Shown: positions 801 through 15,375, numbered from the stretch's first letter. The stretch is DNA of 15,894 nt from Candidatus Iainarchaeum sp. (GCA_903916665.1 CAIWXP010000176.1:1-15894); one strand, 5' to 3'. Notes: generated by a model from the sequence alone, not told the origin. A program made the numbers and translations.

Positions 801-3800
801 ATGGGTTTGTCAGATTTATATTACAAACTAGAGGAAAAATATTATACTAGCTTAGACTGGTTTGATTCAAAAGGCATACATGTTTTTTATAAAATTGATG
901 AGTGGCTACAAAGCAAAAATATACCCTCATTTCCTGTTGTAACTATTTTTAATATATTACTTTTAGCAGTAATTGTATTATTGATATTGTATTTCACAGG
1001 AGTATTTGGTACTAATTATGTTAATGTTACAATGCAATTTGTTGATGTTACAAATAATGCCTCTGTATCAGCATTGCCAGTTTCATTAAGTTTTGATAAT
1101 GGTTCACAGGTTGGAACAACCAATGATACTGGAACATTGGAAGTGTCTTTGCCCAAGGATGCTTTGGTTCAAGTAACAATAGAATCAGATAAATATATGT
1201 TAGATAAAACTAGTTTTTCAGCAACTGATGGTGTACCAATTAAATTTGAATTAAGTGATAAAAGTAATTTGTTAGGAAATAAATTATTAAAATTATTTTC
1301 TGATTTAGATAATAAAGTATTGTTTTCAGGAAGTGTTGATGTTGATTTGACATGTAGTGGAGATGCTAATTATATAAAAAAGAAAACTGTTGTTGATGGT
1401 ACATTGGATTTGTCAGATTTACCAGATGATTGTGGTAATTTAACAGTTACTTCCTATGATCCTGAAATTTCAAAAACAATTGCAGTTACAAAAGATAGTT
1501 TAGAATTAGCAATTGATGCAAAACAAGTAACTGGAACATTAAGAGTAATAGTTCAAGATGATTCTAATAATGTATTACAAAATATGGCAGTAAGTGTTTA
1601 TTCTCAAGATTCTGTTTTGAAAGGTTCTCAAACAACAGCAGAAACTGGATTAACCGAATTTAAATTAAATTTAGGAAACTATTATGTTAGCGTTTCTGAT
1701 TCAGGTTCTGGAGAATATTCTTTTATTTCAACAAAAGATTTAAATGATTCTAGTTGTAATGATCAAATAACTGAAGCAACTCCAATTGTTTGTACTGTAA
1801 CAATGCAAAAATTAAATATTGGAAAAATAAATTTAAAAATATTAGATATTTCTGGTAAACCAGTTAGCACTGCAATAGTAGAAGTGTATAAAGGAGATTT
1901 AGAATTATTTAATGATACTTTACAACAGGATTCAAATGGATTATTTGTAAGAGGCGTTGCAGAACAAGGTCCCTACAGAATAGTTGTTGATGCTCCTCAA
2001 TATATGATTTATGATAACCCAAGTGTAATGATTTCTGATACCCCACAATCAATTACATTGGAACCAGTAAAAAGTTCACCAGTACTAAGTGTTTATGTTA
2101 CTGCAAATGATGATGTTGTTGCAAACGCAACTGTTCAATTATTTAAAGAAGGTAATTTATTATTAACAAAAACAACTGGTGCAGATGGTATTGCTTTTTT
2201 TGATAGATTAGAAACTGGAAAAGTATATAATGTTAAAGTTGTAAAAGGTGAATATTCAACAACATCTAATACAATTTCTTTAGATGCAAGACAACAAAAT
2301 AAATTAGAAGTTAAAATGGTTATTGGAAAAGGAAATGTTGATGTTGTAGTTTTAAATAAAAATGAAGAACCAGTTTTAGCAAGTGTTGAATTATTTAATG
2401 TCTATGATGATAAATCTTTGGGAACTGCAAATCAAACAGATTCAACAGGTACAGCACATTTTTATGGTATAGGTGCCGATAAAACTGTTTATGCAAAAAT
2501 TATAACAGATGCAGGAACAAGTTATAGTTTATCAAGTGATGTAATTGCAAGTCAAACTATAACATTGAATGCATATAGTATTGATGATTCAACAACATTA
2601 AATATGGAATTAGTTGGAGTTTACAATGGTGATGGTTCACAAATAAGTACATTACCCTATAATGTTGTTCCTAGTGGAGAATATTATGCAATGTTTTTAT
2701 TGCAAGTACCAAAAGGAAAATCATTTAACTCAGGAAATATATTTTTTGTTGGAGATGGAAAAACTCAAGCAGAATCAAGTATATTAATTAAAAGCACAGA
2801 AGTTTTGAATGGTCAAGAAACAAAAGGATTAACCTATACTGCTCCTTTGGGATATGCAGAAGATATGTTAAATAAAACTTCAGATAATGGTCTATGGAGT
2901 TCAGTAAATTTATCAAAAATAAATTCTGGATCAAGCTTAGTTAAAGTTGATTTTATTGTAAGTGGCGAACCTAAAAATGATTTATTTAAATTAGGATATA
3001 GAGCTAGTTTGAAAAGTGGAAGTTCAATAGTTAGAACACCAGTAGATAATATTTTGGGACAAAATGAAAGTGTTTCAGAAAAATTAGGATTCTATGCAGA
3101 AACAAGTGGATTATCATTTAAATCTGGAGATGCTATTTGTTCAGATATTGCCTGTGTTGAATTAACTGCTTTAGATTCAACTGGCTATACAACAAAATTA
3201 GGTCAAGATGCAGTATTATATTCTCAATTTAATACTGATACTGTTTTAAAATTCAAAATAGTTTCAGCAACAAAAACAGCATTAACAAATTTAAAATTAA
3301 ATATTGAATCAAAGAATTTAGGATTAAATATTTCTAATGTTAGTGTTAATGGAAAAGAATTAACAGGAAAAGGAAAATATACTTTAAATGTAGATAGTTT
3401 TAGTTCTGCTAATGGTATTTTAGGTAACATTGGTTTTACAACTGAAAAAGAAGGAGATACATTATTAACAATAACTTTATCTTCTGACAAAGAAGTTTTA
3501 TTTTCAAAAGAAATAAAAGTTAGTGTAAATAGTCCAAATAATTTAATTGTAGAATATTTGCCCACTACTATTATACCCTATGTTTTGAATTTAGGTGCAG
3601 TAGTTGTTAGTGATGCAAATGAAAAAATGCCAATTAGCGATATTTTAGTAAATGTTTATTTGAATGATAATTTAGTAACTTCTGGAAAAACAGATGGTGA
3701 CGGAACATTACCTGTTCAATTGGATAAACCAAATGCTGGTGATGTATTAAAAATTGTTGCTACTGGTCCAGGATATAATAGTGTAACAACAACAACAAAA

Positions 3801-6800
3801 ATAACCGAAAATATTTTAGTACCAAACAAACCAGAAATAGTAATTAATGTTGATAAAACAGAAAAAGAATTAGTAACAACAGATATTTCTTTAGCAACAC
3901 ATTTATTATCTAAATTGAAAATTAAAAAAGTAAGTTTTTCAACAAATAATTTTTCTGAATTTATAGATGTAAAAACAAGTATTTTACAAAACACAGAAAT
4001 TGATAGAAATATAGATGTCAATATTAGTGCACAATTAACTGATTTAGGAAAATCATTATTGGAACCAAAATCATTTAACACAAATTTAGAATTGGTTGTT
4101 AGATCCGATGAATTAGATAGACAATGGACTGTTGAAATTCCAATACAAATTTATATTAGAATGTTTGATTCCATTGATACATTAAATTGTTTACAATTAT
4201 TAGGTGATCAAAATGGAACATCTAGTTTTAAAATTGTAAATAATTGTATGTATCAAAATTCACCAATACAATTATACAATCCAACAATATTTGTTGAATG
4301 GGATGGAACTCCTTTAGGTGATTATTCTTATAATAATGATAAAATAACTGAAGATGGATTATTATTAAATAAAGAATTAAAACCTAAAACAACAACATTT
4401 TCTTTGGCCTTTACAAATAGTACAAGTATTGCTTCTGGTCAATCAAAAGTAAATATGACTTTGAAAGCCTATTTCCCAACAGAAACTGGTTTGCAAGAAT
4501 TAACTGCAAGCAAAGAGGGAGTAGTAACAGTAAGCGATTTGAAAAAATGTTTATTTATTATTGATCCAAATGGTAATCCATTAAACGCAGACACTGTTTT
4601 AATGAATCCAATAACTTTAGGAGTAGCTCAACAAACTTTGGGTGGTGGATTATTAGGTGGATTATATGGTGCACAATTAACTGCTTCAAATGGTTCTGCA
4701 TTGGGATCTCAATATGGGGGCGGCGCAACCTATTATCAAGCAGGTGCAGGTGGCACAACCAATAACTTTGATGCTGTTTTACATACAACAAGTGCTCAAG
4801 ATCCTAGTTTACTTTGGAGCGGATTACAATCACAGGCAACTGCAACTCCGGGCTATGGCACAACAGCAAGTAGTAGTACTACATCAACAGCAAATAATGG
4901 CTTTGATTCTTTAATTAGAACAGATTCATATAATTATAATATAGAAGATAATAGTAATACAATATTATTTGATGTTTATCCTTATACTCAAACTCCTGCT
5001 ATGGTAGGTGGATTAAGTACAGGTTTAACTCAACAACAATTAATGCAACAACAATTAATGTATGGTGGCCAACAAAGTCTTTATGGTGCTGGACAATATG
5101 GTGCACAACAAGCAGGTATGCTTTTACCATCAATAAACCAAATCACATTTTGGAATAAATGTAATGAACCTGTTGATATAGAAATAAGATCAGTACCTCA
5201 ATTATTTGTAAGTCCAAATACAATTTCAATTCCAGGAAATAATGCAAAGAGCCAAGTAAATATTATGTCAACTTCTTTACCAGGTAATTATCAAGTAACT
5301 GTTTTGGCAGGAACTCAGGGTAATATTTTACCTTTGATGACCATACCAGTAAATGTAATTGACTACGCTTCAAATACTGCAACGGATGATTGTTTCAAAT
5401 TATCTGATGAGCCAGTAATTAACATGAGCGATGTTTGGAAAAGAAATAAAATGATAAAAGTTTACAATTATTGTTATTCAAAAGGAGTAATTTTTGATGA
5501 TGCAACTCCTATTGCATTGCATAACTTATATTCAAGACAACCGGTTGTTGCAAAAGCAAAGGTTGGAGATTTAAATGATTTACGTATTGAACAAAATACA
5601 CCCTACGTTCAAGCAGTTGCATTGGGAGTACCAAATGTTCAAAGCAGTGCAACCTATGGTCAATACCAAGAATTAACTGTAATGTTAGAAAAAGATCCAA
5701 CAATACAAAGATTAGCAACAGAAAATCTTTCAAGAAATAATTCTGCTGGTGATTGGGTAAGTACAATAAGTTCAGTAAGATCTTCATTGGCTGATATTTA
5801 TAATAATGTTGAATTCCCTGCAATATTTGTAATCAATGCAAGAATTGGTTATGGTGCAGCAGGAATTAGAAAGAGTGTACAAAGATTAGTAACAGTAAGA
5901 GATATGTGGAATTTATTGGGTGCTGTTGATTTATATGAAAACCTAATTGGTGGAGATAAATCCTGTGTACCTAGTGATAAGTTAACTGATAAAGATAAAA
6001 ATAATAAATTCACTAGTTGGACTCCAAATATTGAAGTAACTAATGGTGAAATCTACACTTTGAAATGTAGTGATTTTAAACAATCAGAAATTAGAGTACC
6101 TTCAAGTGATTCTTTTACATTATTGAAAAAACCTTGTTTTGGAAAAGGAGATAGTGTAAAATTCAAAGATGATAAAATAAAAGCAACTGATAAAATAAAT
6201 GGAACAGATATTGAATTAGAAATAACACCTAATTTCGATTCTGGAAATATTTATTTTACAGTAAAACCAAAAACTAGTTTACCAAAAGGAACATCTGGCA
6301 CTATTGAAGTACCTGTAAATTATACTGTTCAATCATATTATCATAGTGATGCAGGTTATGATGCATTAAATAGAAAATATACTTTGAAATTAAAATTAGA
6401 TTTAGATTGTACAATTGATGGGTCAACAGCAACAACACCTGCAGATACTACAAAAGTATTATCAAAGGAAGATAGTTGGTGTGTTACAAACTTTGGTGAT
6501 AATTGGTATTCATTAAACACCTATGGATTTGGTGACTATAACAATTTATCATTGGGAAATATGTTAGCCTATAATTATCCAACAAGTAAAGCAACAGCAA
6601 AAGATTGTACAAAATACTTTTGTGATGCAGAACAATTAAAATTATTTTTAGATGGTAAATTTTCTGGATTAGGTTTTACAATAGCAACTACTCCTGTTGT
6701 ATTTAAAGATAAAAATTTAGTAACATTTGTTAGTCCTAGTACAAGAGGATTTGATCTATTACAATTAACTCCAAATGATGTATTAGATCCATTAAGTAAA

Positions 6801-7724
6801 TTTTTCTTAGATAGAGATTTAAGAACATTTGTTGATACAAATTCTGGATTGGCAGAATTTAAAAAATTAGTTGCAAACATGCCAGACTTATATTTGAAAG
6901 TAATTAATTTTAAATGTAATTCTGATGCAAATAATAATGTTGCATTTGAAGATAGTAATAATTGTTATTACAATGCAAAAATGTTATCTGAACATGTTAA
7001 AGCAGAACAAATAATGAGATCAGATTTAAACAAACCCTATGAGATTGTATTCTTAGTAGATTCAAAAACAACTCCTGGATTGGTATTGTTTAATGGTTCA
7101 TATTCTGGAAAGGGTACAATAAATAAAGTTTATTTGAAACCCGATGATTATAATAGAGTATTTAATACTGGTTTCTTAAGTTATAATGCAGAATTATTGC
7201 AAGCAACAAAAATAACAAAACCTGGTGCATATGTTGCAATAAGTTTAGAATTAGGTCCAAGCGGAAAGAAATTAATTTTATATCCTGGAAACTATTATTT
7301 AGGATCATCGGAAGATACAGTAAAAACATTGGATAAATTATTTTATAATTTACCAGTTGATCCTAGTGAAAGACCAAGCTATGCCGGACAATATGGTTTA
7401 TGTATTTCTACTGGGCAATTAAAAGTAGATGATAAAACAATATCAAGTAATTCCTGTGGATCAACTGAATTTGCAAAAGCAAAGACAGAAATATCTACTG
7501 ATAATTATTTGAGCATTGTTGGAACAAATGATTTGAAAAATTTAATAATTAAATATCCTAAATGTGATACTTCTGGTTGTGAAGTAACAATTAAAGATAA
7601 TAAAAAAGTTACAGTTCCAAAAGAAGGATATTTATTAAATGCAATATTTGATAAATCTAATGAATATTGTTATAAAGAAGAATCGAATACAATTAATATT
7701 AAATATTCTGGTGTAAAGAATTAA
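801..7724 (+). CDS. Giant (2307 aa) N-terminally anchored surface protein P1: conserved cytoplasmic N-module + TM, ~6 tandem beta-sandwich modules, Cys-pair modules, low-complexity G/Q/Y insert, P3-like C-terminal module
   Basis: Uninterrupted 6.9-kb ORF in an AT-rich sequence where stop codons are frequent. The single TM 'VVTIFNILLLAVIVLLILYF' lies after ~45 polar residues. Repeated ~85-95-aa units have the carboxypeptidase-regulatory-like pattern, for example 'GTLRVIVQDDSNNVLQNMAVSVY...TAETGLTEFKL..GNYYVSVS'. N-x-S/T sequons are dense (NVT, NAS, NGS, NDT within ~40 aa after the TM). Cysteines occur in pairs. Confidence 0.93.
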   Translation: MGLSDLYYKLEEKYYTSLDWFDSKGIHVFYKIDEWLQSKNIPSFPVVTIFNILLLAVIVLLILYFTGVFGTNYVNVTMQFVDVTNNASVSALPVSLSFDNGSQVGTTNDTGTLEVSLPKDALVQVTIESDKYMLDKTSFSATDGVPIKFELSDKSNLLGNKLLKLFSDLDNKVLFSGSVDVDLTCSGDANYIKKKTVVDGTLDLSDLPDDCGNLTVTSYDPEISKTIAVTKDSLELAIDAKQVTGTLRVIVQDDSNNVLQNMAVSVYSQDSVLKGSQTTAETGLTEFKLNLGNYYVSVSDSGSGEYSFISTKDLNDSSCNDQITEATPIVCTVTMQKLNIGKINLKILDISGKPVSTAIVEVYKGDLELFNDTLQQDSNGLFVRGVAEQGPYRIVVDAPQYMIYDNPSVMISDTPQSITLEPVKSSPVLSVYVTANDDVVANATVQLFKEGNLLLTKTTGADGIAFFDRLETGKVYNVKVVKGEYSTTSNTISLDARQQNKLEVKMVIGKGNVDVVVLNKNEEPVLASVELFNVYDDKSLGTANQTDSTGTAHFYGIGADKTVYAKIITDAGTSYSLSSDVIASQTITLNAYSIDDSTTLNMELVGVYNGDGSQISTLPYNVVPSGEYYAMFLLQVPKGKSFNSGNIFFVGDGKTQAESSILIKSTEVLNGQETKGLTYTAPLGYAEDMLNKTSDNGLWSSVNLSKINSGSSLVKVDFIVSGEPKNDLFKLGYRASLKSGSSIVRTPVDNILGQNESVSEKLGFYAETSGLSFKSGDAICSDIACVELTALDSTGYTTKLGQDAVLYSQFNTDTVLKFKIVSATKTALTNLKLNIESKNLGLNISNVSVNGKELTGKGKYTLNVDSFSSANGILGNIGFTTEKEGDTLLTITLSSDKEVLFSKEIKVSVNSPNNLIVEYLPTTIIPYVLNLGAVVVSDANEKMPISDILVNVYLNDNLVTSGKTDGDGTLPVQLDKPNAGDVLKIVATGPGYNSVTTTTKITENILVPNKPEIVINVDKTEKELVTTDISLATHLLSKLKIKKVSFSTNNFSEFIDVKTSILQNTEIDRNIDVNISAQLTDLGKSLLEPKSFNTNLELVVRSDELDRQWTVEIPIQIYIRMFDSIDTLNCLQLLGDQNGTSSFKIVNNCMYQNSPIQLYNPTIFVEWDGTPLGDYSYNNDKITEDGLLLNKELKPKTTTFSLAFTNSTSIASGQSKVNMTLKAYFPTETGLQELTASKEGVVTVSDLKKCLFIIDPNGNPLNADTVLMNPITLGVAQQTLGGGLLGGLYGAQLTASNGSALGSQYGGGATYYQAGAGGTTNNFDAVLHTTSAQDPSLLWSGLQSQATATPGYGTTASSSTTSTANNGFDSLIRTDSYNYNIEDNSNTILFDVYPYTQTPAMVGGLSTGLTQQQLMQQQLMYGGQQSLYGAGQYGAQQAGMLLPSINQITFWNKCNEPVDIEIRSVPQLFVSPNTISIPGNNAKSQVNIMSTSLPGNYQVTVLAGTQGNILPLMTIPVNVIDYASNTATDDCFKLSDEPVINMSDVWKRNKMIKVYNYCYSKGVIFDDATPIALHNLYSRQPVVAKAKVGDLNDLRIEQNTPYVQAVALGVPNVQSSATYGQYQELTVMLEKDPTIQRLATENLSRNNSAGDWVSTISSVRSSLADIYNNVEFPAIFVINARIGYGAAGIRKSVQRLVTVRDMWNLLGAVDLYENLIGGDKSCVPSDKLTDKDKNNKFTSWTPNIEVTNGEIYTLKCSDFKQSEIRVPSSDSFTLLKKPCFGKGDSVKFKDDKIKATDKINGTDIELEITPNFDSGNIYFTVKPKTSLPKGTSGTIEVPVNYTVQSYYHSDAGYDALNRKYTLKLKLDLDCTIDGSTATTPADTTKVLSKEDSWCVTNFGDNWYSLNTYGFGDYNNLSLGNMLAYNYPTSKATAKDCTKYFCDAEQLKLFLDGKFSGLGFTIATTPVVFKDKNLVTFVSPSTRGFDLLQLTPNDVLDPLSKFFLDRDLRTFVDTNSGLAEFKKLVANMPDLYLKVINFKCNSDANNNVAFEDSNNCYYNAKMLSEHVKAEQIMRSDLNKPYEIVFLVDSKTTPGLVLFNGSYSGKGTINKVYLKPDDYNRVFNTGFLSYNAELLQATKITKPGAYVAISLELGPSGKKLILYPGNYYLGSSEDTVKTLDKLFYNLPVDPSERPSYAGQYGLCISTGQLKVDDKTISSNSCGSTEFAKAKTEISTDNYLSIVGTNDLKNLIIKYPKCDTSGCEVTIKDNKKVTVPKEGYLLNAIFDKSNEYCYKEESNTINIKYSGVKN
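1020..2585 (+). repeat. Protein-level tandem array of ~6 divergent beta-sandwich (CarboxypepD_reg/PEGA-like) modules in P1
   Basis: The recurring pattern is: hydrophobic strand, D/N, 'xxxPVxxAxVxL/V', 'T(T)DxxGxxxF', 'GxYxVxV', then a final strand. Examples are 'KILDISGKPVSTAIVEVYKGD...DSNGLFV...GPYRIVVDAPQY' and 'VYVTANDDVVANATVQLFKEG...TGADGIAFF..LETGKYNVKVVKGEY'. The repeats are too divergent to see at nucleotide level. Confidence 0.6.
4621..5120 (+). other. Low-complexity G/Q/Y/S/T-rich (probably disordered) insertion inside P1
   Basis: The translation is 'GVAQQTLGGGLLGGLYGAQLTASNGSALGSQYGGGATYYQAGAGGTT ... ATATPGYGTTASSSTTSTANNG ... GGLSTGLTQQQLMQQQLMYGGQQSLYGAGQYGAQQAGM'. Local G+C is visibly higher than the flanks. 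The paralog P2 has no counterpart at the equivalent position. Confidence 0.8.
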
Positions 7725-7737
7725 AGTGGTGGATATA

Positions 7738-10700
7738 ATGGGTATACAAGATATATATTACAAATTAGAAAATGGCTATTATAGTATTTTAGATAAAATA
7801 GATAAGGCCGGATTACATGTCTATGCAATTGTTGATCCAATTGATAAAGTAGTTCCAAGTTTTGCATTAATTCTTGGTTTATTTGGATTGATAATTTTAG
7901 CATTAATATTCTATTTTGCATTTATGTTTGGTTCAGTAGGCCCAAGTACACCCGTAACTTTTTATTTTGTAGATAAATCTGGAAATCCAGTAGCAGATGC
8001 AAATGTTGAAATGTTATTAAATAGTACACCCTATAGTTACACCACAACAAAATTGGGAACCATTGCATTCGATGCTTACCAAGGAGATGTTGTTGATTTA
8101 AATATTAGCGCAGGAACTGAAACTGAAAAGATAAATGAAGTTATTTCTGATAAAACAGAATATAAATATTCATTAAGTTTTTCTTTAGAGCAGGATACCA
8201 TAAGATTTAGTGTAAATACAAATGATGGTTCGCCATTAAAAGAAATTAATATTGAATTTTTGTGTAGTAATACAACCATTGCAGCACCCAGTGCAATTTA
8301 TAGTTCTACTGCAACTGATTATTCTGTTAGTGTTGATCCACAATGTGGTAATTTAACAGCAACAGTAAAATCTAATTATTATGCAGAAGTATCTGTAACT
8401 TCTTTAACAGATTTACAAGCAATAATTGTGCAACCATTAAACTATGGTGGAAATAATTCAATAGTATTAGTTGTTTTTGATAAGGATACCAATGATTCTA
8501 TTAATGATTATTCTGCAACGGTAAGTCAAACAGGAATTGTGTTAGATAATCAAACTTCTATGAGTACTGATACAATAATGTTTTCTGGTTTATCAACAGG
8601 TTCATTTGTTGTTAGTGTAAGTAAAACAGGATATCTTCCTGCAAGTACTTCAGTAACATTACAAAGTGGTACATCAAGCGCAGTAGTTTATATGCAAAAA
8701 GATTATGCAAATATTGGTGGAAATTTATTGGTAACTGTTGTGGATGGTAGTTCAACAAGTTTGCCAAATTTATTTGGTGCAACAGTAAGTGTATACAAAT
8801 TAGATGGTGATAAACAAAGTGTTATAATTAAAAGTGCAGCAACAACATCAGATAATAATGCAACAGTAACTATTCCTGTTGATGATATGAGTTTGAATTA
8901 TTGGGTTCAAATTACAGATTCAGGATATATAACTCAAAATAAAAAATCAGTTAATCCAAGACAACCATTGGTGGTTGCATTAAATAAATTGGGGTCTCAA
9001 AGAAATGCAGTTATACAAGTATTAGATGCAGATAAAACACCAATAGGAAATGCAACAGTTGCTTTGTATGATGAAAAAGATAATGTTGTTGATCCAAATT
9101 TTGGAATAACTGATGCAAATGGTATTGCAGCAGATAAAAGTTTAGAAGAAGATGCAAAATATAAAGCCTATATTTACAAAGGACAATATAATGGTACAGG
9201 TGAATTATTTACCTATAACTCATCAACTTTACCTGCAAATGGTATTGATAGCACAGTAACATTAACATTGCCAAAATCAAGTTGGGAAATTACTTTGGTA
9301 GATAAATTTAATGCTCCTGTTCCAAATGCATTGGTAGAAATATATGATGCATACACAGGATTTCCAAATGCAGATCCAATTGAAGTAGGAACAAAATATG
9401 CGTCGCCTCAAGGTGTTTTTAGTGTATCAAATTTAAGTACAGATAAAAAATATTTTGCAGTAATTAAAGCACCAAGCTATGAAAATTATGTTAGTATTGC
9501 AAAATTTTTAGAACCAAATTCAAATGTTCAAGAAACTTTTGTTTTGGAAAAAGAAAGATTAAATAAAAAACCAGTAATAGAACAATTAGGTATTGAAGAT
9601 ACAGAAGGAAAACAGGTAATGAAATTAGGTCCTGGAAATTTATATAAAGTAAAATTTAAAATTACTTTGCCTGCTGGTGTAAAATATGATACTTTAACTG
9701 CAAATTTTTTAGTTGGTGCAGAAGATTCTTTTGTTGAAAAAGATGCAGGATATATTGATAGAGTTAATATTAGTGCGTCTGGAGTTTTAGCAAAAGGTAG
9801 AGCTTATTTGAATGGTGATTTCCAAAAAAGTATTAGTGAATCACAGACAGGAAAAGAAACAAGAGCTTTCGAAAATGATATTGTTGAAGGTACTCCATTC
9901 CAAGATGAAACTAAATGGGTTCAATTGACTTGGAATTTAAATAAATTTAATATCGAAAGTGGACAAATGTTTGTTGATTTATATTTACAAGTTAGACCAG
10001 GAACATTGGAAGGAACAACAATTCCTGTAGAATATAATATAGTTACATCTGGTGTTGATAGCCAAGGTGATGATCAAACTTATTTAGATCCTCTTGATAG
10101 TGCAACCTATGATAAAGAACACAATAGTTTGTTTAATAATAAAAAACCATTAATATTAAATGTTGGTGATGGTCAACAAATTTGTGATGATAAATTTTGT
10201 TTTGAAATGACAATATTTGATACTAATGATGAATTAAAAACAAGTGTTTCTGGAGATACTCCCTATATTGCAACATTGGGAAAGAATTATAATATGAAAT
10301 TTAATTTAATGAATAATAATATTGTTCCATTAACACACTATAGAATTGTTATTGAAAACCCACAACAAAATATTAATATGAAATCTGGAGTAATATATTC
10401 TGCAGATAATAATGCAGAAACAATGCCTCAACCAAGCAACTTTGATGACTATTTTAAATATACTTTTAGAGCAGAATCAGAAAATGATGTTTTGTCTCAA
10501 AACAGTGTAATTAAAGGGGATATTAATTTTGTTCCTATTGTTGAAGGTTCGGGTTCAATTAAATTAACAGTAATAGAAGATATGACAATAATTTACACAA
10601 AAGAATTATATGTTAGTGTTAATGCAAATAAAGAATTAAGAGTGGTTATAGAACCAGAAGTTATACCATCTTACGTAAATTTAACTGATATAAATTTTAC

Positions 10701-12471
10701 AGTTTATGATGGAAATAGCAGTGCATTTATAGATGGTGCAACGGTTAGAGTTGTTGATGTCTATAAAAATGTTTTAGCTGAAAGCGATACCAATGAATTG
10801 GGTGTTGCAAAATTAACTTTAAAATCTCAATTACCAAATATTGATTTGAAATTAAAAGTATATAAAGAAGGATTTAAAGCCTATGAAAAAATATTAAAAA
10901 CAAATGATAAATTTGTTACAATAAATCCAGAAGAATTAAAAATATCAGCAAATATTGCAGATAAATTAGGTACTGCAAAATTAACATTAACAAATACAAG
11001 TGAATTACCAGTTAAAATTACTGAATTAAGTTTAGAAGGTAATTTTGATGAGTATGTTAATTTAAGAGAAGCAAATAATTATTTATCAAATAGTAGTTTG
11101 AATAAAACAATTGATAAGAATCATTCAATTATTGTGCCGGTAAATGTTAATTTAACAACCATTGCAGAAAGTTTACAAACCAATAGAGAATATTCTGCAG
11201 ATTTAATTGTTAAAATAAGACCAGATAGTAATACAATATCAAGTACAAAAGATTGGGAATATAAAATTCCTGTTACATTGAGTATTACTTTAGGTAAAGG
11301 ATTAGATAATTTAGATTGTTTAGGTGTGGATGTTCAAAAATCTGCTTTGGTATCAACTGGTGGAAAGAATGATGAAGACACAGTAAACATTGTTAATGGA
11401 TGTACAGTAGATTCACAGCCAGTAAATTTAACAAATTTAGAAGCTAAAGTAACTTGGAAAGGAAACGCTTTGGGTAGTTTAACATTTAATAGAAATGAAC
11501 AAAGTGCAAGATTACAAAATGCATACTATGTTACATTAAATAATAAAATGACAACCCACGAGGAAGATAATTACATTGTTGATTTAGCACCAACAAATGG
11601 AAGAATCGCAGGTGTAGGTACAGTTGAAGTTTCTGTTAGAGCCGGTTATTTTGCAGACTCAGGTGTTCAATTTGTTGAAAAGAAAATTACCTATTCTGTG
11701 GATGTAATTAATATGGGAGCTTGTATAAGCTATGTTTTTCCAGATAATGAAGTTGATTTGATGACAGTTCCAAGAAATGCAAAAGGAACTTTTACAGTAA
11801 AGAACGAATGTGATACGGATATTGCATTGAAATTAGATGTATTGCCAGATCAATTTATTGATATAAGACCATTGGAATTAACAGTTCCTGCAAAGGGAGA
11901 AAAAGCAGTAATAATTGATCCAAAGAATTCTCCTGTTGGAATATATTTATTAGAAGTTAGAGGACAGGTTCCTAAACAACACTTTGAAGGAATTAAAGTT
12001 GGAAATGAAGCATTAAGAGTTTTCATTGCTCCTTTGGCCGATGATTGTTTAGTATTGGATAACTATGAATTTAATTTAATGGACACAAATGGGGGCGACG
12101 CAGAGCGTTATACTTATTTGATTAATAGATGTTATTTCAAAGATATTAAAGCAGTTTACAAATTAGATTTATTAAGAAATGATGGTTGTAAAATGGAAAA
12201 CTTTAACGGTTGGCTAACTAGCCTAGCTGGTTCAATGGTTGCGGGTGTAACCATTGGTTCAGCAATTGGTAGTGCAGTTGGTGGCGGTTGTGGTGCCTTA
12301 AACAATAGTGAAAGCTATGTTTCTGTTGATAAGAAAAAATGTATGGATGCGGCAGATCAAAACAAAGCAGATGCAAAAGCTGCTGCTGATAAAGCCGCTG
12401 CCGCAGCTGCCGCAGCAAAACCAGCAGCAACTGCAGCTTCTGCTGCTGTTCCAGCTATAACTGTTACATAG
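7738..12471 (+). CDS. Giant (~1577 aa) surface protein P2, paralog of the first ~1550 aa of P1, with C-terminal glycine-zipper helix and Ala-rich tail
   Basis: I prefer ATG 7738 to the tracked GTG 7726 for two reasons. 'MGIQDIYYKLENGYY' then aligns residue-for-residue with the P1 start 'MGLSDLYYKLEEKYY'. 'GGTGGA' (7728-7733) also sits 4-5 nt upstream as an RBS. Only 13 nt separate it from the P1 stop. Motifs are colinear with P1, for example 'CGNLT' with 16 identical nt at 8344-8359 versus 1431-1446. Confidence 0.9.
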   Translation: MGIQDIYYKLENGYYSILDKIDKAGLHVYAIVDPIDKVVPSFALILGLFGLIILALIFYFAFMFGSVGPSTPVTFYFVDKSGNPVADANVEMLLNSTPYSYTTTKLGTIAFDAYQGDVVDLNISAGTETEKINEVISDKTEYKYSLSFSLEQDTIRFSVNTNDGSPLKEINIEFLCSNTTIAAPSAIYSSTATDYSVSVDPQCGNLTATVKSNYYAEVSVTSLTDLQAIIVQPLNYGGNNSIVLVVFDKDTNDSINDYSATVSQTGIVLDNQTSMSTDTIMFSGLSTGSFVVSVSKTGYLPASTSVTLQSGTSSAVVYMQKDYANIGGNLLVTVVDGSSTSLPNLFGATVSVYKLDGDKQSVIIKSAATTSDNNATVTIPVDDMSLNYWVQITDSGYITQNKKSVNPRQPLVVALNKLGSQRNAVIQVLDADKTPIGNATVALYDEKDNVVDPNFGITDANGIAADKSLEEDAKYKAYIYKGQYNGTGELFTYNSSTLPANGIDSTVTLTLPKSSWEITLVDKFNAPVPNALVEIYDAYTGFPNADPIEVGTKYASPQGVFSVSNLSTDKKYFAVIKAPSYENYVSIAKFLEPNSNVQETFVLEKERLNKKPVIEQLGIEDTEGKQVMKLGPGNLYKVKFKITLPAGVKYDTLTANFLVGAEDSFVEKDAGYIDRVNISASGVLAKGRAYLNGDFQKSISESQTGKETRAFENDIVEGTPFQDETKWVQLTWNLNKFNIESGQMFVDLYLQVRPGTLEGTTIPVEYNIVTSGVDSQGDDQTYLDPLDSATYDKEHNSLFNNKKPLILNVGDGQQICDDKFCFEMTIFDTNDELKTSVSGDTPYIATLGKNYNMKFNLMNNNIVPLTHYRIVIENPQQNINMKSGVIYSADNNAETMPQPSNFDDYFKYTFRAESENDVLSQNSVIKGDINFVPIVEGSGSIKLTVIEDMTIIYTKELYVSVNANKELRVVIEPEVIPSYVNLTDINFTVYDGNSSAFIDGATVRVVDVYKNVLAESDTNELGVAKLTLKSQLPNIDLKLKVYKEGFKAYEKILKTNDKFVTINPEELKISANIADKLGTAKLTLTNTSELPVKITELSLEGNFDEYVNLREANNYLSNSSLNKTIDKNHSIIVPVNVNLTTIAESLQTNREYSADLIVKIRPDSNTISSTKDWEYKIPVTLSITLGKGLDNLDCLGVDVQKSALVSTGGKNDEDTVNIVNGCTVDSQPVNLTNLEAKVTWKGNALGSLTFNRNEQSARLQNAYYVTLNNKMTTHEEDNYIVDLAPTNGRIAGVGTVEVSVRAGYFADSGVQFVEKKITYSVDVINMGACISYVFPDNEVDLMTVPRNAKGTFTVKNECDTDIALKLDVLPDQFIDIRPLELTVPAKGEKAVIIDPKNSPVGIYLLEVRGQVPKQHFEGIKVGNEALRVFIAPLADDCLVLDNYEFNLMDTNGGDAERYTYLINRCYFKDIKAVYKLDLLRNDGCKMENFNGWLTSLAGSMVAGVTIGSAIGSAVGGGCGALNNSESYVSVDKKKCMDAADQNKADAKAAADKAAAAAAAAKPAATAASAAVPAITVT
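7951..9560 (+). repeat. Protein-level tandem array of ~6 beta-sandwich (CarboxypepD_reg/PEGA-like) modules in P2
   Basis: Examples: 'PVTFYFVDKSGNPVADANVEML', 'LLVTVVDGSS..LFGATVSVYKLDG', 'AVIQVLDADKTPIGNATVALYDEKD...TDANGIA', 'WEITLVDKFNAPVPNALVEIYDAY...SPQGVFSVSNL..DKKYFAVIKAPSY'. The order and module count match P1 1020-2585. Confidence 0.6.
12208..12468 (+). other. P2 C-terminal glycine-zipper hydrophobic segment followed by K/D/A then poly-Ala/Pro tail
   Basis: The translation is 'GWLTSLAGSMVAGVTIGSAIGSAVGGGCGAL ... DQNKADAKAAADKAAAAAAAAKPAATAASAAVPAITVT*'. The small-xxx-small (GxxxG/AxxxG) periodicity is typical of glycine-zipper membrane helices. The stretch is a GC-rich codon island (GCN runs) in an AT-rich gene. 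Confidence 0.7.
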
Positions 12472-12498
12472 GTATTTTATTTTTTACGGTGATTTTTT

Positions 12499-14988
12499 AT
12501 GATTAATTATAGAGAAGGGAAAAATATGAGAAATAAAATATTAGGATTTATGTTTTTATTATTCTGCATGACTTTGTTTTTTAGTCAAATATATGCAGAA
12601 GCAGCAGCATCAGGTATTGGGGGAATGCTTTCAGGTGTCGGAGGACAAACTCTAATGACTGGTGGATTAATGGCCGCTGGTTATTTAGGTGGGCAATACT
12701 TAACTAAAGCATTAGGTGGAGATAATGAAATGGCAAAAGCTAGTGGAGGTATGGCCTCAGGATTAGCAACATTAGGTGGTGCTTTAGGTGGAATTTTAGG
12801 TGGAACTGGTTGGGGTGCAATTGCAGGTATTATTGGTTCGGCTGTTGGAAGTACAGTTGGTGCAATTATGTTCGCAGCATCAAAGGATCCCTTAACAACA
12901 GTGGACCGAGGAGTTTTAACAAGAATTATTTCTTTGGATGCAAATAATGCAAGAGTATTTTCTGCAAATTATAAAGTTGCAGGTAGCGACACAGAATCAG
13001 ATTATTATGGCGCAGAATACAAAGCAGATAAAAACTTTATTAAAAAAGATAAAGATACTTACTTTGAATATACTCCTGTAAAAATAACAACTAAAAGACA
13101 ATTAAATGGCTCAGGATCAATACCAAAGGAAGTTGACACAGCAGTGTTAGTTTTTGATACAAGAGGATTACCAGATTATTTGTATAAAAGTACAGGAAAT
13201 CCCGGTGCATTAAATCCTTTAGCAGCAGGTACTCAAACACCAGTAAATGGTGCAGCAACTTCAGTATATTCTGGATCAACAACAGATCCATTTGCAGGTG
13301 CATTAGAATTGAGTGATGATTCAAGACAGGAAATGGGTTGGTGTAAAGCCAATGATCAAAGTGAATTAGAAGCAGTGGATAAAATTGTATCAAAGAATTG
13401 GGTACAAAAATTAGCTGAAGATGAAAAACAATCAAACCAAGAATCATTTGTTTTATTATTGAAATATTTAAAGCCTCAAGAAGAAGCTATTCAAATACCT
13501 TCATATAATTGTTTAGGTCCTAATGGATTATTAGGTGTAACTGGCGCAGATAATGCTCCAAAAGTATTATATGATTGGTCATGGAATACTGTAGGTGGAG
13601 TAAATACTGATTTTTGTAGTTCGGGAAATTATTATTGTGATTCAACACAATTTATGATATTCCTATTAAAAAGATTAGAAAAATATAATACTTTAGCAGC
13701 AAGTATTGATGGAAATGTATCAAGCACTGCTGATTTAAATGGAAATAGCACAGGTTACCAAAAACAAATATATGATAATTTAAATTTTAAAACATATATG
13801 ATGTTAGATGGTTTTACTCAAGACTTTTTGAAAGATTTTAAAGACTATGCAGTTAATACAAGTTATTTGGGATTTCCTTCTGATGAACAGGAAAAGTTTT
13901 CAGCAATGTTACCAGATAAAGTATCATTTAGACCTTTAAGTGGAGAAACAGTAAATCCCGAAGGTTATAGATTACCTCAAGCTGGTGCATACAATGTTGT
14001 AATAGAAGTAACCTATAAAGATGGTACAACAAACTATGAATTATTTAATAATAATAAAATATCAGATAACGTAAGTAATATCTATGTTTATTTTGAACCA
14101 GTTTCACAGGAAGTAAATCCAATTTATAATATGCCTTTGGATGCAACTGTGGGTGTGGATAAACAAGTTATAGATAGAATTGGCTATGGTGTAGATTATT
14201 CAGGAGATTCTATTTGGTTTAAAATGGACCCAAATAATAGTATGTTATTAGATCCTACTATGAGATCTAATTCAACACCAATAGTTCATTTAGACATGGT
14301 AACAAAAGCAGATACTCAAAGTCTAAATGGTTTTATGAAAGGCACAGTATTGCAAATAATTCCTAAATCAGGAGCAAATGGTGTTGCCTATGCAGTAACA
14401 AAATATAAATCATTGCCAACCTATGTTGATTTAACAATTAATAAAAAAACAGAGGGCGGAGCCTATGCTTATTATTCAATAGACTTTGGAGATAGCGGTG
14501 CACCACAGAATGCAGGTAATTCTTTTATATTGTGGAATTTAATATGTACAAAAGACAATCCAGGTTGTGAAAGTTTTAATGGTGCAAAAGAAACTGATGA
14601 TATGTATTTATCAGATAAATTGGGAGTAAATGCCAAGGTTGCACCAACTGGGCAAGTACAAGGTTTTGTCTACGGATTAGAATGGGATAAAGATTCTATA
14701 ATAAGAGATGGAAAACATAATTCTGTAAATTACAGAGGTATGGTATATATGCCCGATGATTTAGGCTCAGTAAATTTTAATGTGGTTATTGCAAGTGATA
14801 GTTCAGTTCCTGCAGTAGGTTCAACTCAAATATTAACTTCTAAAGTTGATGGAAAATTAGAAGATATAGCTGGTATATTTGATAGAATGAAAAACAATGA
14901 AATTTGTATGAGCAAAGATGGTTCAGGTATAAGATTCTGGTGGAACCCTGCAAAGGTAATGGGTTTAGCAGAAGCACCTACAAATTAA
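12499..14988 (+). CDS. Secreted/membrane-associated protein P3 (829 aa; 820 aa if ATG 12526): Sec-type signal peptide, ~95-aa Gly-rich glycine-zipper region, large Cys-containing domain resembling the C-terminal extension of P1
   Basis: 'GGTGAT' (12488-12493) lies 5-6 nt before ATG 12499. The alternative ATG 12526 yields a canonical signal peptide, 'MRNKILGFMFLLFCMTLFFSQIYA|EAAASG'. The Gly-rich block runs 'GIGGMLSGVGG...GGALGGILGGTGWGAIAGIIGSAVGSTVGAIMFAAS'. Motifs are colinear with P1 6470-7724 (see findings). The ORF is followed by a hairpin plus oligo-T. Confidence 0.9.
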   Translation: MINYREGKNMRNKILGFMFLLFCMTLFFSQIYAEAAASGIGGMLSGVGGQTLMTGGLMAAGYLGGQYLTKALGGDNEMAKASGGMASGLATLGGALGGILGGTGWGAIAGIIGSAVGSTVGAIMFAASKDPLTTVDRGVLTRIISLDANNARVFSANYKVAGSDTESDYYGAEYKADKNFIKKDKDTYFEYTPVKITTKRQLNGSGSIPKEVDTAVLVFDTRGLPDYLYKSTGNPGALNPLAAGTQTPVNGAATSVYSGSTTDPFAGALELSDDSRQEMGWCKANDQSELEAVDKIVSKNWVQKLAEDEKQSNQESFVLLLKYLKPQEEAIQIPSYNCLGPNGLLGVTGADNAPKVLYDWSWNTVGGVNTDFCSSGNYYCDSTQFMIFLLKRLEKYNTLAASIDGNVSSTADLNGNSTGYQKQIYDNLNFKTYMMLDGFTQDFLKDFKDYAVNTSYLGFPSDEQEKFSAMLPDKVSFRPLSGETVNPEGYRLPQAGAYNVVIEVTYKDGTTNYELFNNNKISDNVSNIYVYFEPVSQEVNPIYNMPLDATVGVDKQVIDRIGYGVDYSGDSIWFKMDPNNSMLLDPTMRSNSTPIVHLDMVTKADTQSLNGFMKGTVLQIIPKSGANGVAYAVTKYKSLPTYVDLTINKKTEGGAYAYYSIDFGDSGAPQNAGNSFILWNLICTKDNPGCESFNGAKETDDMYLSDKLGVNAKVAPTGQVQGFVYGLEWDKDSIIRDGKHNSVNYRGMVYMPDDLGSVNFNVVIASDSSVPAVGSTQILTSKVDGKLEDIAGIFDRMKNNEICMSKDGSGIRFWWNPAKVMGLAEAPTN
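12598..12880 (+). other. Glycine-zipper / Gly-rich membrane-interacting region of P3
   Basis: About 95 aa with roughly one third Gly and repeated GxxxG/GxxxA spacing. The last segment, 'GWGAIAGIIGSAVGSTVGAIMFAA', is long and hydrophobic enough for a TM helix. Confidence 0.7.
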
Positions 14989-15066: not shown

Positions 15067-15105
15067 GTTTGGTGACTAATTATTATTAGTTGATAACTTT
15101 TAGTG

Positions 15106-15375
15106 ATGAATATGTTAGAAAAAAGAAAAACCATGCCTACATTGAATACTGTTATTATGGTTGAAAATACCATAAAGAACAGCCCCTGTAGTGTGATAAA
15201 AATATCTGAAATTAAAAGAGCTTTACCTAAACAAATTAATCATAATACTTTAAAAGTTATTTTAGAGTATTTAGAGAAAAGTAATAAGATTGCATTTACT
15301 TCAAAAGGAATTACCTGGATTCATAATGATAATCCCCATTTAAGGGTTGTTATAAATAAAGGTTTAGAAATATGA
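15106..15375 (+). CDS. Small winged-helix-like DNA-binding protein, candidate antitoxin/regulator
   Basis: ~87-90 aa; the start is ambiguous (GTG 15103, ATG 15106, ATG 15112). 'IKISEIKRALPKQINHNTLKVILEYLEKSNKIAFTSKGITWI' has a helix-turn-helix plus beta-wing (wHTH) pattern. Its stop overlaps the next gene's start (ATGA, 15372-15375). Confidence 0.65.
   Translation: MNMLEKRKTMPTLNTVIMVENTIKNSPCSVIKISEIKRALPKQINHNTLKVILEYLEKSNKIAFTSKGITWIHNDNPHLRVVINKGLEI

What the first reader, a model, noticed from the sequence alone, without database searches (positions are those of the whole stretch)
12208..12880. Matching glycine-zipper segments on both sides of the P2/P3 gene boundary, with nucleotide-level similarity, plus a poly-Ala tail
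The P2 C-terminus 'AGVTIGSAIGSAVGGG' and the P3 N-region 'AGIIGSAVGSTVGAIM' are near-identical motifs. At DNA level, 12253-12284 (attggttcagcaattggtagtgcagttggtgg) and 12833-12864 (attggttcggctgttggaagtacagttggtgc) share 26 of 32 positions by my count. Glycine zippers (GxxxGxxxG) drive tight helix-helix packing in membranes and occur in pore-forming or oligomerising membrane proteins. Having one at the end of P2 and several at the start of P3 suggests the two chains reassociate in the membrane, non-covalently restoring the P1-like architecture. It could also mean they form an oligomeric membrane pore or anchor. P2 would then be tethered at both ends (N-terminal anchor plus C-terminal zipper), with the 'AAAADKAAAAAAAAKPAATAASAAVPA' tail on the far side. 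The GC-rich Ala/Gly codon island is a strong compositional outlier in this window.
Basis: partly seen in the sequence, partly recalled or inferred. Interest (0 to 1): 0.66.

Follow-up and report, generated by a model that had tools for sequence, protein, structure and literature searches.

The report
Split archaeal surface protein, glycine-rich hinge
Two neighbouring genes of a tiny DPANN archaeon are the two halves of a giant cell-surface protein that most relatives make as one chain; the matching glycine-rich segments on either side of the break are inherited parts of that protein's membrane-proximal hinge, so the finding is real but fairly ordinary.

Summary
P2 ends with AGVTIGSAIGSAVGGG plus an Ala-rich tail. 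P3 carries AGIIGSAVGSTVGAIM. The two DNA stretches share 26 of 32 bases, with the second coordinate off by one. GC is 41.5% against 29.5% for the window.

The DNA match is only marginally above what the peptides and codon bias predict (P≈0.04). The GC excess lies entirely at codon positions 1 and 2.

P2 and P3 together are a fission of a family of 2,100–3,200-aa, N-terminally anchored surface proteins of Iainarchaeota (Diapherotrites).

Fused relatives already carry all the Gly-rich segments: A after the last Ig-like domain, and B1/B2 before the C-terminal domain. This contradicts the prediction that fused forms lack them.

The break lies in the variable linker between A and B1, and P3 gained a signal peptide. 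P3's zipper (B2) is conserved, with five invariant Gly. P2's zipper and its poly-Ala tail are not conserved.

B2 is most likely a membrane hairpin that anchors P3. Pairing of P2 with P3 through the zippers is possible but untested. The C-domain fold matches nothing known.

The parts
801..7724 (+). P1, a 2,307-aa paralogue ('type 1'). It has an N-terminal cytoplasmic helix plus a TM anchor, and Ig-like/CarboxypepD_reg repeats. It also has a Q/G/N-rich, non-hydrophobic low-complexity region (aa ~1270-1445). Its C-terminal half is unrelated to P3.
   Evidence: P1 aa 1-1257 aligns with P2 aa 5-1340 at 24% identity (E 5e-44). It has no central hydrophobic segment. There is no similarity to the P3 family. 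P1 orthologues lie upstream of the P2 orthologues in L006 and L002.
7726..12471 (+). P2, the N-terminal fission product of a 'type 2' giant surface protein. The likely start is ATG 7738, preceded by GGTGG. It comprises a cytoplasmic N-helix, a TM anchor (aa ~46-68) and ~1,400 aa of Ig-like domains.
   Evidence: Orthologues are P0003 (58% identity), the 1,602-aa gene in L006, the partial gene in L019 and the 1,537-aa gene in L021.
12208..12300 (+). Segment A: GWLTSLAGSMVAGVTIGSAIGSAVGGGCGAL (P2 aa 1495-1525). It is a Gly/Ala/Ser-rich, uncharged, marginally hydrophobic helix directly after the last Ig-like domain.
   Evidence: Maximum KD over 19 residues is 1.57, against 2.8-3.0 for TM1. It has 4 GxxxG motifs. 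The crude Hessa sum is +3.4. It is positionally conserved as 'ENWxG + ~20 small/hydrophobic residues' in orthologues and fused forms, but the zipper itself is not conserved.
12253..12284 (+). DNA copy 1 of the matching stretch (IGSAIGSAVG), made of three 12-nt units.
12301..12468 (+). P2 tail: a polar spacer (aa 1526-1551) followed by an Ala/Pro-rich low-complexity end (aa 1552-1581). It is a remnant of the variable inter-segment linker of fused relatives.
   Evidence: GCN repeats at 12397-12437. Orthologue tails differ. L006 has a ~130-aa charged, helical and Pro-rich tail. L019 has ~190 aa with a beta domain. L007 has (PAAA)n plus a beta domain. L021 has only 9 aa. Fused forms P0139 and P0110 have ~250-aa Ala-rich linkers.
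12472..12498 (+). P2-P3 spacer. P2 and P3 are in the same frame, separated by two stops (TAG and TGA). The spacer holds an oligo-T run and a GGTGA Shine-Dalgarno sequence (12488-12492) 6 nt before ATG 12499.
   Evidence: The L006 orthologue pair has TAA-AGGTGATT-ATG.
12499..12597 (+). P3 signal peptide: a basic n-region, the h-region ILGFMFLLFCMTLFFSQIY, and a c-region IYA|EA.
   Evidence: All six orthologues have the same design, with sites VSA|DE, VNA|DS, VFA|V, AYA|DT and VAG|G. This was judged heuristically; no SignalP was available.
12610..12702 (+). Segment B1, a Gly-rich and weakly hydrophobic helix (P3 aa 38-68).
   Evidence: KD 0.91; Hessa sum +6.6. It is conserved as LKxAGLxAGxYL... 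in orthologues and is present in the fused form L009.
12751..12882 (+). Segment B2, the conserved glycine zipper (P3 aa 85-128): 44 uncharged residues with 8 GxxxG motifs.
   Evidence: G93, G97, G102, G106 and G110 are invariant in six orthologues. KD is 1.81. It aligns with the strongly hydrophobic double-TM block of the P0006-type fused relatives (KD 2.2-2.9, turn WCPPC; P0014 has CGPGC). There is a 12-nt periodicity at 12768-12807.
12832..12863 (+). DNA copy 2 of the matching stretch (IGSAVGSTVG).
12886..14988 (+). P3 C-terminal domain (aa 130-829). It is beta-rich, carries the family motifs YCDxTQF and FWWNP, and has no known fold relative.
   Evidence: 411 relatives were found in the 50%-identity representative library. 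The AF2 model has pLDDT 76.5, with most of this region above 85. There is no Foldseek match at E<=1e-3 in PDB or BFVD. There is no Pfam, NCBIfam or PDB sequence hit.

Best explanation
P2 and P3 are the products of an old, conserved gene fission in a family of giant surface proteins of Iainarchaeota (Diapherotrites, DPANN).

In most relatives one 2,100-3,200-aa chain holds the following, in order:
- an N-terminal cytoplasmic helix plus a TM anchor;
- ~1,400 aa of Ig-like domains;
- Gly-rich segment A;
- a highly variable low-complexity linker;
- Gly-rich segments B1 and B2;
- a ~700-aa beta-rich C-terminal domain.

The break fell in the variable linker. P2 kept segment A plus a linker remnant, which is the Ala-rich tail. 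P3 kept B1, B2 and the C-domain, and acquired a Sec-type signal peptide so that it is exported on its own.

Inferred, not shown:
- B2 is a glycine-zipper helical hairpin that dips into the archaeon's membrane and holds the exported C-domain at the cell surface.
- Segment A is a juxtamembrane, marginally hydrophobic helix. It may pack against B1/B2 but is not required for anchoring.
- The resemblance between the P2 and P3 motifs is lineage-specific. It arises from 12-nt (4-codon) slippage-prone units of the type (I/V)-G-S-(A/T) written with the same biased codons. It is not a conserved pairing code.
For: Shown by tool results:
1. Collinearity with fused homologues. P2 aligns with the N-terminal part of P0004, P0005 and P0006. 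P3 aligns with the C-terminal part.
2. The split is real and conserved. There are two stops, an SD sequence and a signal peptide. Stand-alone P3 orthologues P0008-P0012 are 39-55% identical. Adjacent P2-like and P3-like genes occur in L006, L019, L021 and the P0013 contig. P1 orthologues lie upstream in L006 and L002.
3. Fused forms carry A, B1 and B2. Examples are L009, P0004, P0005 and P0020 and the P0006 group.
4. B2 is conserved, with five invariant Gly. It aligns with the strongly hydrophobic two-helix block of the P0006-type proteins.
5. The C-module is exported in many independent stand-alone forms. Of 27, 17 have a strongly hydrophobic N-terminal signal. Three or four of those are lipobox-type, and they lack a Gly-rich B segment, as expected if B is an anchor.
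6. Segment A and the tail are poorly conserved.
7. The DNA identity is nearly explained by codon bias. The 12-nt periodicity is documented. A sister strain (P0081) has a poly-Ser expansion in the same region.
Against: - Membrane insertion of B2 is not demonstrated. Its hydropathy is intermediate (KD 1.8; crude Hessa sum +2.2). AF2 gives pLDDT below 35 for aa 27-130.
- The position of the hairpin turn in P3 is ambiguous: TGWG at aa 103-106, or aa ~113 in the MAFFT alignment.
- Other stand-alone clades (P0034, P0077) have short, polar B regions that cannot span a membrane.
- The peptide match between A and B2 is stronger than shuffles predict in the window (P≈0.004) and in fused L009 (P≈0.02). 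Some concerted evolution or selection for matching cannot be excluded.
- The signal peptide was judged by eye, not by a trained predictor.
Confidence: 0.6

Rival explanations
1. Segment A of P2 and B2 of P3 are complementary transmembrane glycine zippers. They re-associate in the membrane and non-covalently rebuild the fused protein. P2 is then anchored at both ends, with its Ala-rich tail in the cytoplasm.
For: - In the P0006-type fused relatives, the helix following the last Ig-like domain and the helix preceding the C-domain are adjacent in one 65-70-aa hydrophobic block. A cut between them would leave two halves of a hairpin.
- P0139 and P0110 have a TM, then a ~250-aa Ala-rich helical loop, then a TM. 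This resembles A plus an Ala tail, followed by B.
- In L021 the P2-like protein ends with segment A plus a 9-aa charged tail, like a C-terminal anchor.
- Tight operon linkage is seen in at least four lineages.
- The A/B2 peptide match is above shuffle expectation in the window and in L009.
Against: - Segment A in the orthologues contains K, E, H or P and has crude insertion sums of +4.5 to +6.7.
- P3 and at least 16 other stand-alone C-modules start with a signal peptide. The chain just upstream of B is therefore exported, which puts the linker outside and leaves segment A non-spanning if topology is conserved.
- The linkers and tails include (PAAA)n repeats, small beta domains and Cys-rich modules typical of extracellular regions.
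- P3 orthologues occur without an adjacent P2 (L003, L005, L018).
- Five of seven A/B pairs show no similarity.
Confidence: 0.22
2. The Gly-rich segments are not membrane-embedded in the producer at all. They are flexible or amphipathic, fusion-peptide-like or stalk elements at the base of the C-domain. They might insert into the membrane of a host cell during DPANN episymbiosis. On this view P2 and P3 are analogous to the receptor-binding and fusion subunits of a cleaved viral glycoprotein.
For: - The composition and crude hydrophobicity of B2b (+2.2) are marginal for autonomous insertion. They resemble Gly/Ala-rich viral fusion peptides; this comparison is from my own knowledge and was not tested.
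- AF2 leaves aa 27-130 unstructured.
- Some clades have short polar B regions.
- The family is specific to a DPANN lineage and sits in tandem arrays of divergent paralogues, as expected for host-interaction proteins.
Against: - The AF2 model shows no heptad-repeat coiled coil after B2 and no C-terminal TM in P3.
- There is no structural match to any fusion protein in PDB or BFVD.
- The P0006-type relatives have unmistakable TM-grade helices at the same position.
- No host association is known for this organism.
Confidence: 0.1
3. The A/B2 match is a recent local sequence transfer (micro gene conversion) or pure chance in low-complexity sequence, and has no functional meaning.
For: - The motif is absent from the P2 orthologues and lies in the less conserved half of B2.
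- Both Ser positions use the same codon family in the same order. This accounts for most of the DNA excess (P=0.037).
- The region is slippage-prone.
Against: - The DNA excess is marginal and the comparison is post hoc.
- A different matching motif recurs in L009, but without DNA-level support (P=0.10).
Confidence: 0.08

Closest known systems
Transmembrane glycine zippers (GxxxGxxxG; small-xxx-small helix packing motifs). The reference I recall is Kim et al. 2005 PNAS; I did not read it here.
   Same: - P3 B2 has 8 GxxxG motifs and 12 small-x3-small-x3-small motifs in 44 uncharged residues.
- Its Gly positions are conserved across orthologues.
- P2 segment A has 4 GxxxG motifs.
   Different: - Membrane insertion is unproven and hydrophobicity is intermediate.
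- There is no match to any Pfam glycine-zipper family.
- The P2 copy is not conserved.
Uncharacterised giant N-anchored surface proteins of Iainarchaeota/Diapherotrites. In NCBI records they are named 'hypothetical protein' or 'carboxypeptidase-like regulatory domain-containing protein'. Examples are P0004, P0006, the L009 gene, and the 2,169-aa AR10 (CP010424) gene in L012.
   Same: The N-terminal motif plus TM, the Ig-like/CarboxypepD_reg repeats, segments A and B, and the C-domain with YCDxTQF...FWWNP.
   Different: Here, and in a clade of relatives, the protein is encoded as two genes and the second half has gained a signal peptide.
Split protein-coding genes of DPANN archaea, for example Nanoarchaeum equitans (PMC3655853 mentions multiple split genes).
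   Same: A protein that is a single chain in relatives is encoded as two ORFs in a reduced-genome archaeon.
   Different: - Here the halves are adjacent and co-oriented. In N. equitans the halves are generally dispersed (my own knowledge).
- Here the downstream half acquired its own export signal, so each half reaches the surface independently.
Two-subunit surface assemblies made from one precursor or operon, such as class I viral fusion glycoproteins (SU/TM) and Sulfolobales SlaA/SlaB. This comparison is from my own knowledge.
   Same: - A large distal part and a smaller membrane-proximal part encoded in tandem.
- A Gly/Ala-rich hydrophobic stretch at the N-terminus of the second part.
   Different: - No sequence or fold similarity.
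- No coiled-coil stalk and no C-terminal TM in P3.
- The membrane anchor of the first part is N-terminal.

Membership tests
Glycine-zipper transmembrane helix | Three or more Gly/small residues at i, i+4, i+8 | tested here: met
   P2 segment A has 4 GxxxG motifs and 8 small-x3-small-x3-small motifs. P3 B2 has 8 and 12.
Glycine-zipper transmembrane helix | The motif lies in a membrane-spanning helix | tested here: inconclusive
   Maximum KD over 19 residues is 1.57 (A) and 1.81 (B2), against 2.8-3.0 for TM1. Crude Hessa sums are +3.4 and +2.2, against -4. AF2 pLDDT is below 35. No trained topology predictor was available.
Glycine-zipper transmembrane helix | Gly positions conserved in orthologues | tested here: met
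   This holds for P3 B2 only: G93, G97, G102, G106 and G110 are invariant in six orthologues. It does not hold for P2 segment A, where orthologues have K, E, H or P at the aligned positions.
Pfam glycine-zipper or related families (Gly-zipper_Omp/YMGG, DUF1269, C19orf12) | HMM score above the gathering threshold | tested here: not met
   The P3 N-region has no family at E<=1. The P2 C-terminus scores 14.6 bits for C19orf12 (cut-off 30) and 13.8 bits for DUF1269 (cut-off 26.9).
Iainarchaeota giant N-anchored surface protein family (unnamed) | N-terminal DxYYxxExxYY...DKVVPSF motif followed by a TM anchor | tested here: met
   Present in P1 and P2, and in P0003-P0006, L006, L009, L012, L013 and L021.
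Iainarchaeota giant N-anchored surface protein family (unnamed) | C-terminal ~700-aa domain with YCDxTQF and FWWNP | tested here: met
   P3 against P0006 gives E 4e-20. 411 relatives were found. The HMM of 124 C-domains scores P3 at E 7e-116. P1 is not detected.
Iainarchaeota giant N-anchored surface protein family (unnamed) | Gly-rich hydrophobic segments between the Ig-like array and the C-domain | tested here: met
   68 of 73 fused forms have at least one segment with KD>=1.0 in that interval. Eleven have a 60-70-aa block with KD 2.2-2.9.
Conserved gene fission (not an assembly or sequencing artefact) | Two ORFs collinear with one fused homologue, with independent translation signals, conserved in other genomes | tested here: met
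   There are two in-frame stops, a GGTGA SD sequence and a signal peptide. The same arrangement occurs in L006, L019, L021 and the P0013 contig.
Sec-type signal peptide on P3 | Basic n-region, hydrophobic h-region, small-x-small cleavage site | tested here: met
   Inspection of P3 and five orthologues. The 11-residue KD peak is 3.4 in the three orthologues scored (P0008, P0009, P0012). This is heuristic only; no SignalP was run.
Class I viral fusion glycoprotein-like two-chain system | Heptad-repeat coiled coil after the hydrophobic peptide, and a C-terminal TM anchor | tested here: not met
   The AF2 model is beta-rich with only one long helix (aa 287-309). There is no C-terminal hydrophobic segment. 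There are no Foldseek matches.

The most novel reading that the evidence does not exclude
The Gly-zipper helices A (on P2) and B2 (on P3) form a specific inter-chain membrane zipper. This would turn the fission products into a two-chain surface machine: a distal adhesin plus a membrane-active C-module. A DPANN episymbiont could use such a machine to engage, or insert into, a host membrane. The recurrent lineage-specific A/B2 matching in the window and in L009 would then reflect co-adaptation of the two helices.
Probability: 0.1. Interest if true: 0.7.

Novelty: new member of a known kind. Interest (0 to 1): 0.3.

Why it matters
The finding itself is modest. It documents a clean, conserved gene fission of a giant archaeal surface protein inside its low-complexity hinge, with the downstream half gaining a signal peptide. 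It also shows that the glycine-rich segments are ancestral family modules rather than an adaptation to the split.

The wider point is that these genes belong to a large, entirely unannotated family: 411 clusters at 50% identity. The members are Iainarchaeota surface proteins arranged in tandem arrays, and their C-terminal domain has no recognisable fold. If these proteins mediate cell-cell contact in DPANN archaea, the naturally split P2/P3 pair would be a convenient two-piece system for expression and dissection.

Tried and rejected
- **P1 as the fused template: rejected.** BLASTP of P1 against P3 gave only chance-level hits (best E 0.47). BLASTP of the P1 C-terminal half against the 150 P3-family representatives gave no hit at E<=1e-3. 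The C-domain HMM did not detect P1.
- **Read-through of one stop codon: rejected.** Two stops separate the frames, and P3 has an SD sequence and a signal peptide.
- **Foreign origin of the GC island: rejected.** GC3 is unchanged.
- **Word-index homologue search with full P3.** It found only P3 itself, probably because Gly-rich words saturated the candidate list. The exhaustive HMMER search with aa 130-829 solved this.
- **Third homologue search with P2 aa 1300-1581.** It returned nothing, not even P2 itself, so it was uninformative.
- **AF2 with a 6-sequence alignment.** The model was unusable (pLDDT 42.6). The 46-sequence alignment gave a good C-domain, but the Gly region stayed below pLDDT 35.
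- **Structure and family searches.** Foldseek against PDB and BFVD, the PDB sequence profile search, Pfam, NCBIfam and Rfam gave no informative hit.
- **Literature searches.** They found no description of this family.
- **Archaeosortase/PGF-CTERM-type sorting signal at the P2 C-terminus.** I considered this and rejected it on inspection, because 56 residues follow the hydrophobic segment and there is no PGF-like motif.
- **Antisense ORF 12218-12430 (70 aa).** I treated it as a by-product of the GCN/GGN repeats.


Full report
**Setting.** The window is a complete 15.9-kb metagenomic contig with 29.5% GC. It carries three large co-oriented ORFs: P1 (801-7724, 2,307 aa), P2 (7726-12471, 1,581 aa) and P3 (12499-14988, 829 aa). 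The closest relatives of P2 come from Candidatus Diapherotrites / Iainarchaeum MAGs, which are DPANN archaea. A TATA-like box precedes P1, and a hairpin plus T-run follows P3. The three genes are separated by only 13 and 27 nt, and GGTG-type Shine-Dalgarno sequences precede P2 and P3.

**Checking the observation.** Both peptides are present: P2 aa 1506-1521 AGVTIGSAIGSAVGGG and P3 aa 109-124 AGIIGSAVGSTVGAIM.
They share 26 of 32 bases.
- Given the two peptides and the window's codon usage, 20.6±2.2 of 30 identities are expected and 25 are seen (P=0.037).
- At peptide level, the 8/10 core beats composition shuffles (P≈0.003-0.01) and shuffles that keep all Gly in place (P≈0.004). 'Near-identical' overstates a 9/16 ungapped match.
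- Both stretches are built of 12-nt units: IGSA-IGSA-VGGG, LGGA-LGGI-LGGT and IGSA-VGST-VGAI.
- A sister strain (P0081) has a poly-Ser expansion nearby, so the region evolves by slippage.
- The GC island is real (41.5%; only a 10-nt-offset overlap of the same region ranks higher). It comes wholly from codon positions 1 and 2, which reflects Gly GGN and Ala GCN codons. GC3 stays at 0.16-0.18.

**What P2 and P3 are.**
- P2 aligns end to end with the N-terminal ~1,400 aa of 2,200-2,400-aa proteins (P0004, P0006) and with a 58%-identical partial orthologue, P0003.
- P3 aa 312-820 aligns with the C-terminal part of P0006 (E 4e-20) and P0004 (E 4e-10).
- An exhaustive HMMER search with P3 aa 130-829 found 411 representative relatives. 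Most are 2,100-3,200-aa fused proteins with the match at their C-terminus. Five are stand-alone P3 orthologues of 783-821 aa (39-55% identity).
- Together, P2 and P3 are therefore a fission of a 'type 2' giant surface protein.
- The split is not an artefact. Two stops (TAG and TGA) separate the ORFs, and P3 has a GGTGA SD sequence and a signal peptide.
- The same P2-like | P3-like adjacency occurs in L006, L019, L021 and the P0013 contig. P1 orthologues lie upstream in L006 and L002.

**P1 is not the template.** P1 shares only its N-terminal 1,257 aa with P2 (24% identity). It has no central hydrophobic segment. Its Gly/Gln-rich stretch is polar and sits before, not after, the last Ig-like domain. 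Its C-terminal 1,050 aa are invisible to BLASTP and to an HMM of 124 P3-type C-domains, although that HMM scores P3 at E 7e-116.

**The Gly-rich segments are ancestral.** I call the P2 segment A (aa 1495-1525) and the P3 segments B1 (aa 38-68) and B2 (aa 85-128).
- The closest fused relative is L009 (2,609 aa, 35% identity to P3). It carries A (GWDYVLGILGGAAGGAVGNKLGG...), then a Cys-rich/GT-rich linker, then B1, then B2.
- P0004, P0005 and P0020 have the same order, with beta-rich linkers of 150-190 aa.
- Eleven fused proteins (the P0006 group) have, at this position, one 60-70-aa block of true TM-grade hydrophobicity (KD 2.2-2.9). It has a 'WCPPC' turn between two helices.
- P0014 has 'CGPGC' at the matching place in B2.
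- The prediction that fused forms lack the zippers is therefore refuted. The fission fell in the variable linker between A and B1.

**Conservation is asymmetric.**
- In six P3 orthologues, G93, G97, G102, G106 and G110 of B2 are invariant.
- Segment A is conserved in position ('ENWxG' plus ~20 small or hydrophobic residues) but not as a zipper. L006 has GIIKAALGGAVTSAIAGASYGEIFG. L019 has GFLSSVMPATLSSATAGYGIGKAIHG. Fused L009 contains K and E.
- The tail after A ranges from 9 aa (L021) to more than 280 aa. Depending on the lineage it is coiled-coil-like, (PAAA)n plus a small beta domain, or poly-Ala as in this window. The poly-Ala tail is a linker remnant, not a conserved feature.
- A/B2 similarity above shuffle expectation is seen only in the window and in L009. 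It is absent in L006, L019, L021, P0004 and P0005. In L009 it has no DNA-level support.

**Topology reasoning (inference).**
- P3 and its orthologues begin with a classical signal peptide.
- Of 27 stand-alone C-modules in the family, 17 have such a signal. Three or four of these are lipobox-type, and they lack a Gly-rich B segment.
- The C-domain and the chain just upstream of B are therefore exported. An even number of spans (0 or 2) must then lie between the signal peptide and the C-domain.
- Together with the P0006-type hairpin, this favours B2 as a two-helix membrane hairpin that anchors the C-module. It leaves segment A as a non-spanning or peripheral helix.
- Simple hydropathy agrees only partly. 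Maximum KD is 1.57 for A, 0.91 for B1, 1.81 for B2 and 2.8-3.0 for TM1. Crude Hessa sums are +3.4 for A, +6.6 for B1, +2.2 for B2b and -4 for TM1. The A segments of the other lineages (L006, L019, L021 and fused L009) give +4.5 to +6.7.
- AF2 with a 46-sequence alignment models the C-domain confidently (overall pLDDT 76.5) but leaves aa 27-130 below pLDDT 35. The structure prediction therefore neither supports nor refutes membrane insertion or a P2-P3 interface.

**Function.** The C-domain has no Pfam, NCBIfam or PDB sequence match. It has no Foldseek match at E<=1e-3 in PDB or BFVD; there are only weak jelly-roll-like hits. I found no paper describing the family. The tandem arrays of divergent paralogues point to a cell-surface, contact-related role, but this is inference. 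Such arrays are seen in this window, in L001, and in the L021 and P0013 contigs.

**Verdict.** The DNA-level echo is mostly codon bias. It is wrong about P1, wrong that fused forms lack the zippers, and unsupported on paired zippers across orthologues. The best model is a conserved gene fission in the hinge of an uncharacterised Iainarchaeota surface-protein family. In that model P3 is self-exported and probably self-anchored through its conserved glycine-zipper hairpin. Zipper-mediated P2-P3 reassociation remains a minority possibility that needs multimer modelling or experiments.

Noticed in passing
L001 9373-9375 (JGI Ga0209542_10007226): The fused-type homologue P0005 (1,801 aa) and the next called gene (566 aa) are one reading frame interrupted by a single in-frame TGA. 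The 'intergenic' stretch encodes the conserved family motifs LPKIEFAWNW and VYCDGTQF in frame. This could be a sequencing error, a pseudogene, or TGA recoding or read-through.
   Followed up: partly
window 4600-5140 (P1 aa ~1270-1445): P1 has a ~175-aa Gln/Gly/Asn/Tyr/Ser/Thr-rich, prion-like low-complexity insert. It is non-hydrophobic and causes the window's second GC bump (0.38-0.39). The P1-like gene in L001 has a similar N/Q/G/Y-rich stretch.
   Followed up: partly
P0081 (196-aa fragment, 92% identical to the P3 N-terminus): A sister strain carries a poly-Ser expansion (AASSSSSSSSSSSGIGG) right after the P3 signal peptide. This shows rapid slippage evolution of the region.
   Followed up: no
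L005 584-2751; L018 122-1588; L003 2682-4069: In some relatives the P3 orthologue is not preceded by P2. L005 has defence-type genes (nSTAND/AAA NTPase and an AbiEii fragment) upstream of P3. L018 has an unannotated 489-aa ORF upstream. L003 carries an AbiEii gene immediately downstream of P3. These look like mobile islands inserted around this locus. In L003 the P3 orthologue has its own TATA-like promoter.
   Followed up: partly
window 15103-15375 and 15372-15725: Two small ORFs (90 and 117 aa) overlap by 4 nt downstream of P3. Their layout resembles a toxin-antitoxin pair. Similar small ORF pairs follow the P3 orthologues in L003 and L006, ahead of a conserved NOG1-type GTPase. The only Pfam match is a weak DUF2709 hit.
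   Followed up: no
window 1-294 and 291-647 (-): The contig starts with the 3' end of another surface-type protein, which has a C-terminal TM anchor (TLIVGAVIIGLIGFAILLYFLIV-RPKN). On the minus strand there is a DUF192 (COG1430) protein.
   Followed up: no
window 12218-12430 (-): A 70-aa antisense ORF lies inside the Ala/Gly codon island. It is most likely a by-product of the GCN/GGN repeats, and nothing supports it as a gene.
   Followed up: no
L009 (JAQTTP010000003.1), protein aa 1465-1474 and 1653-1662: In this fused relative, segment A and B2 share a different lineage-specific motif (VLGILGGAAG / VLGGLGGAVG, with the exact 6-mer GGAVGN). The match is 8 of 10 residues (P≈0.02). This hints at occasional concerted evolution between the two Gly-rich helices.
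   Followed up: partly
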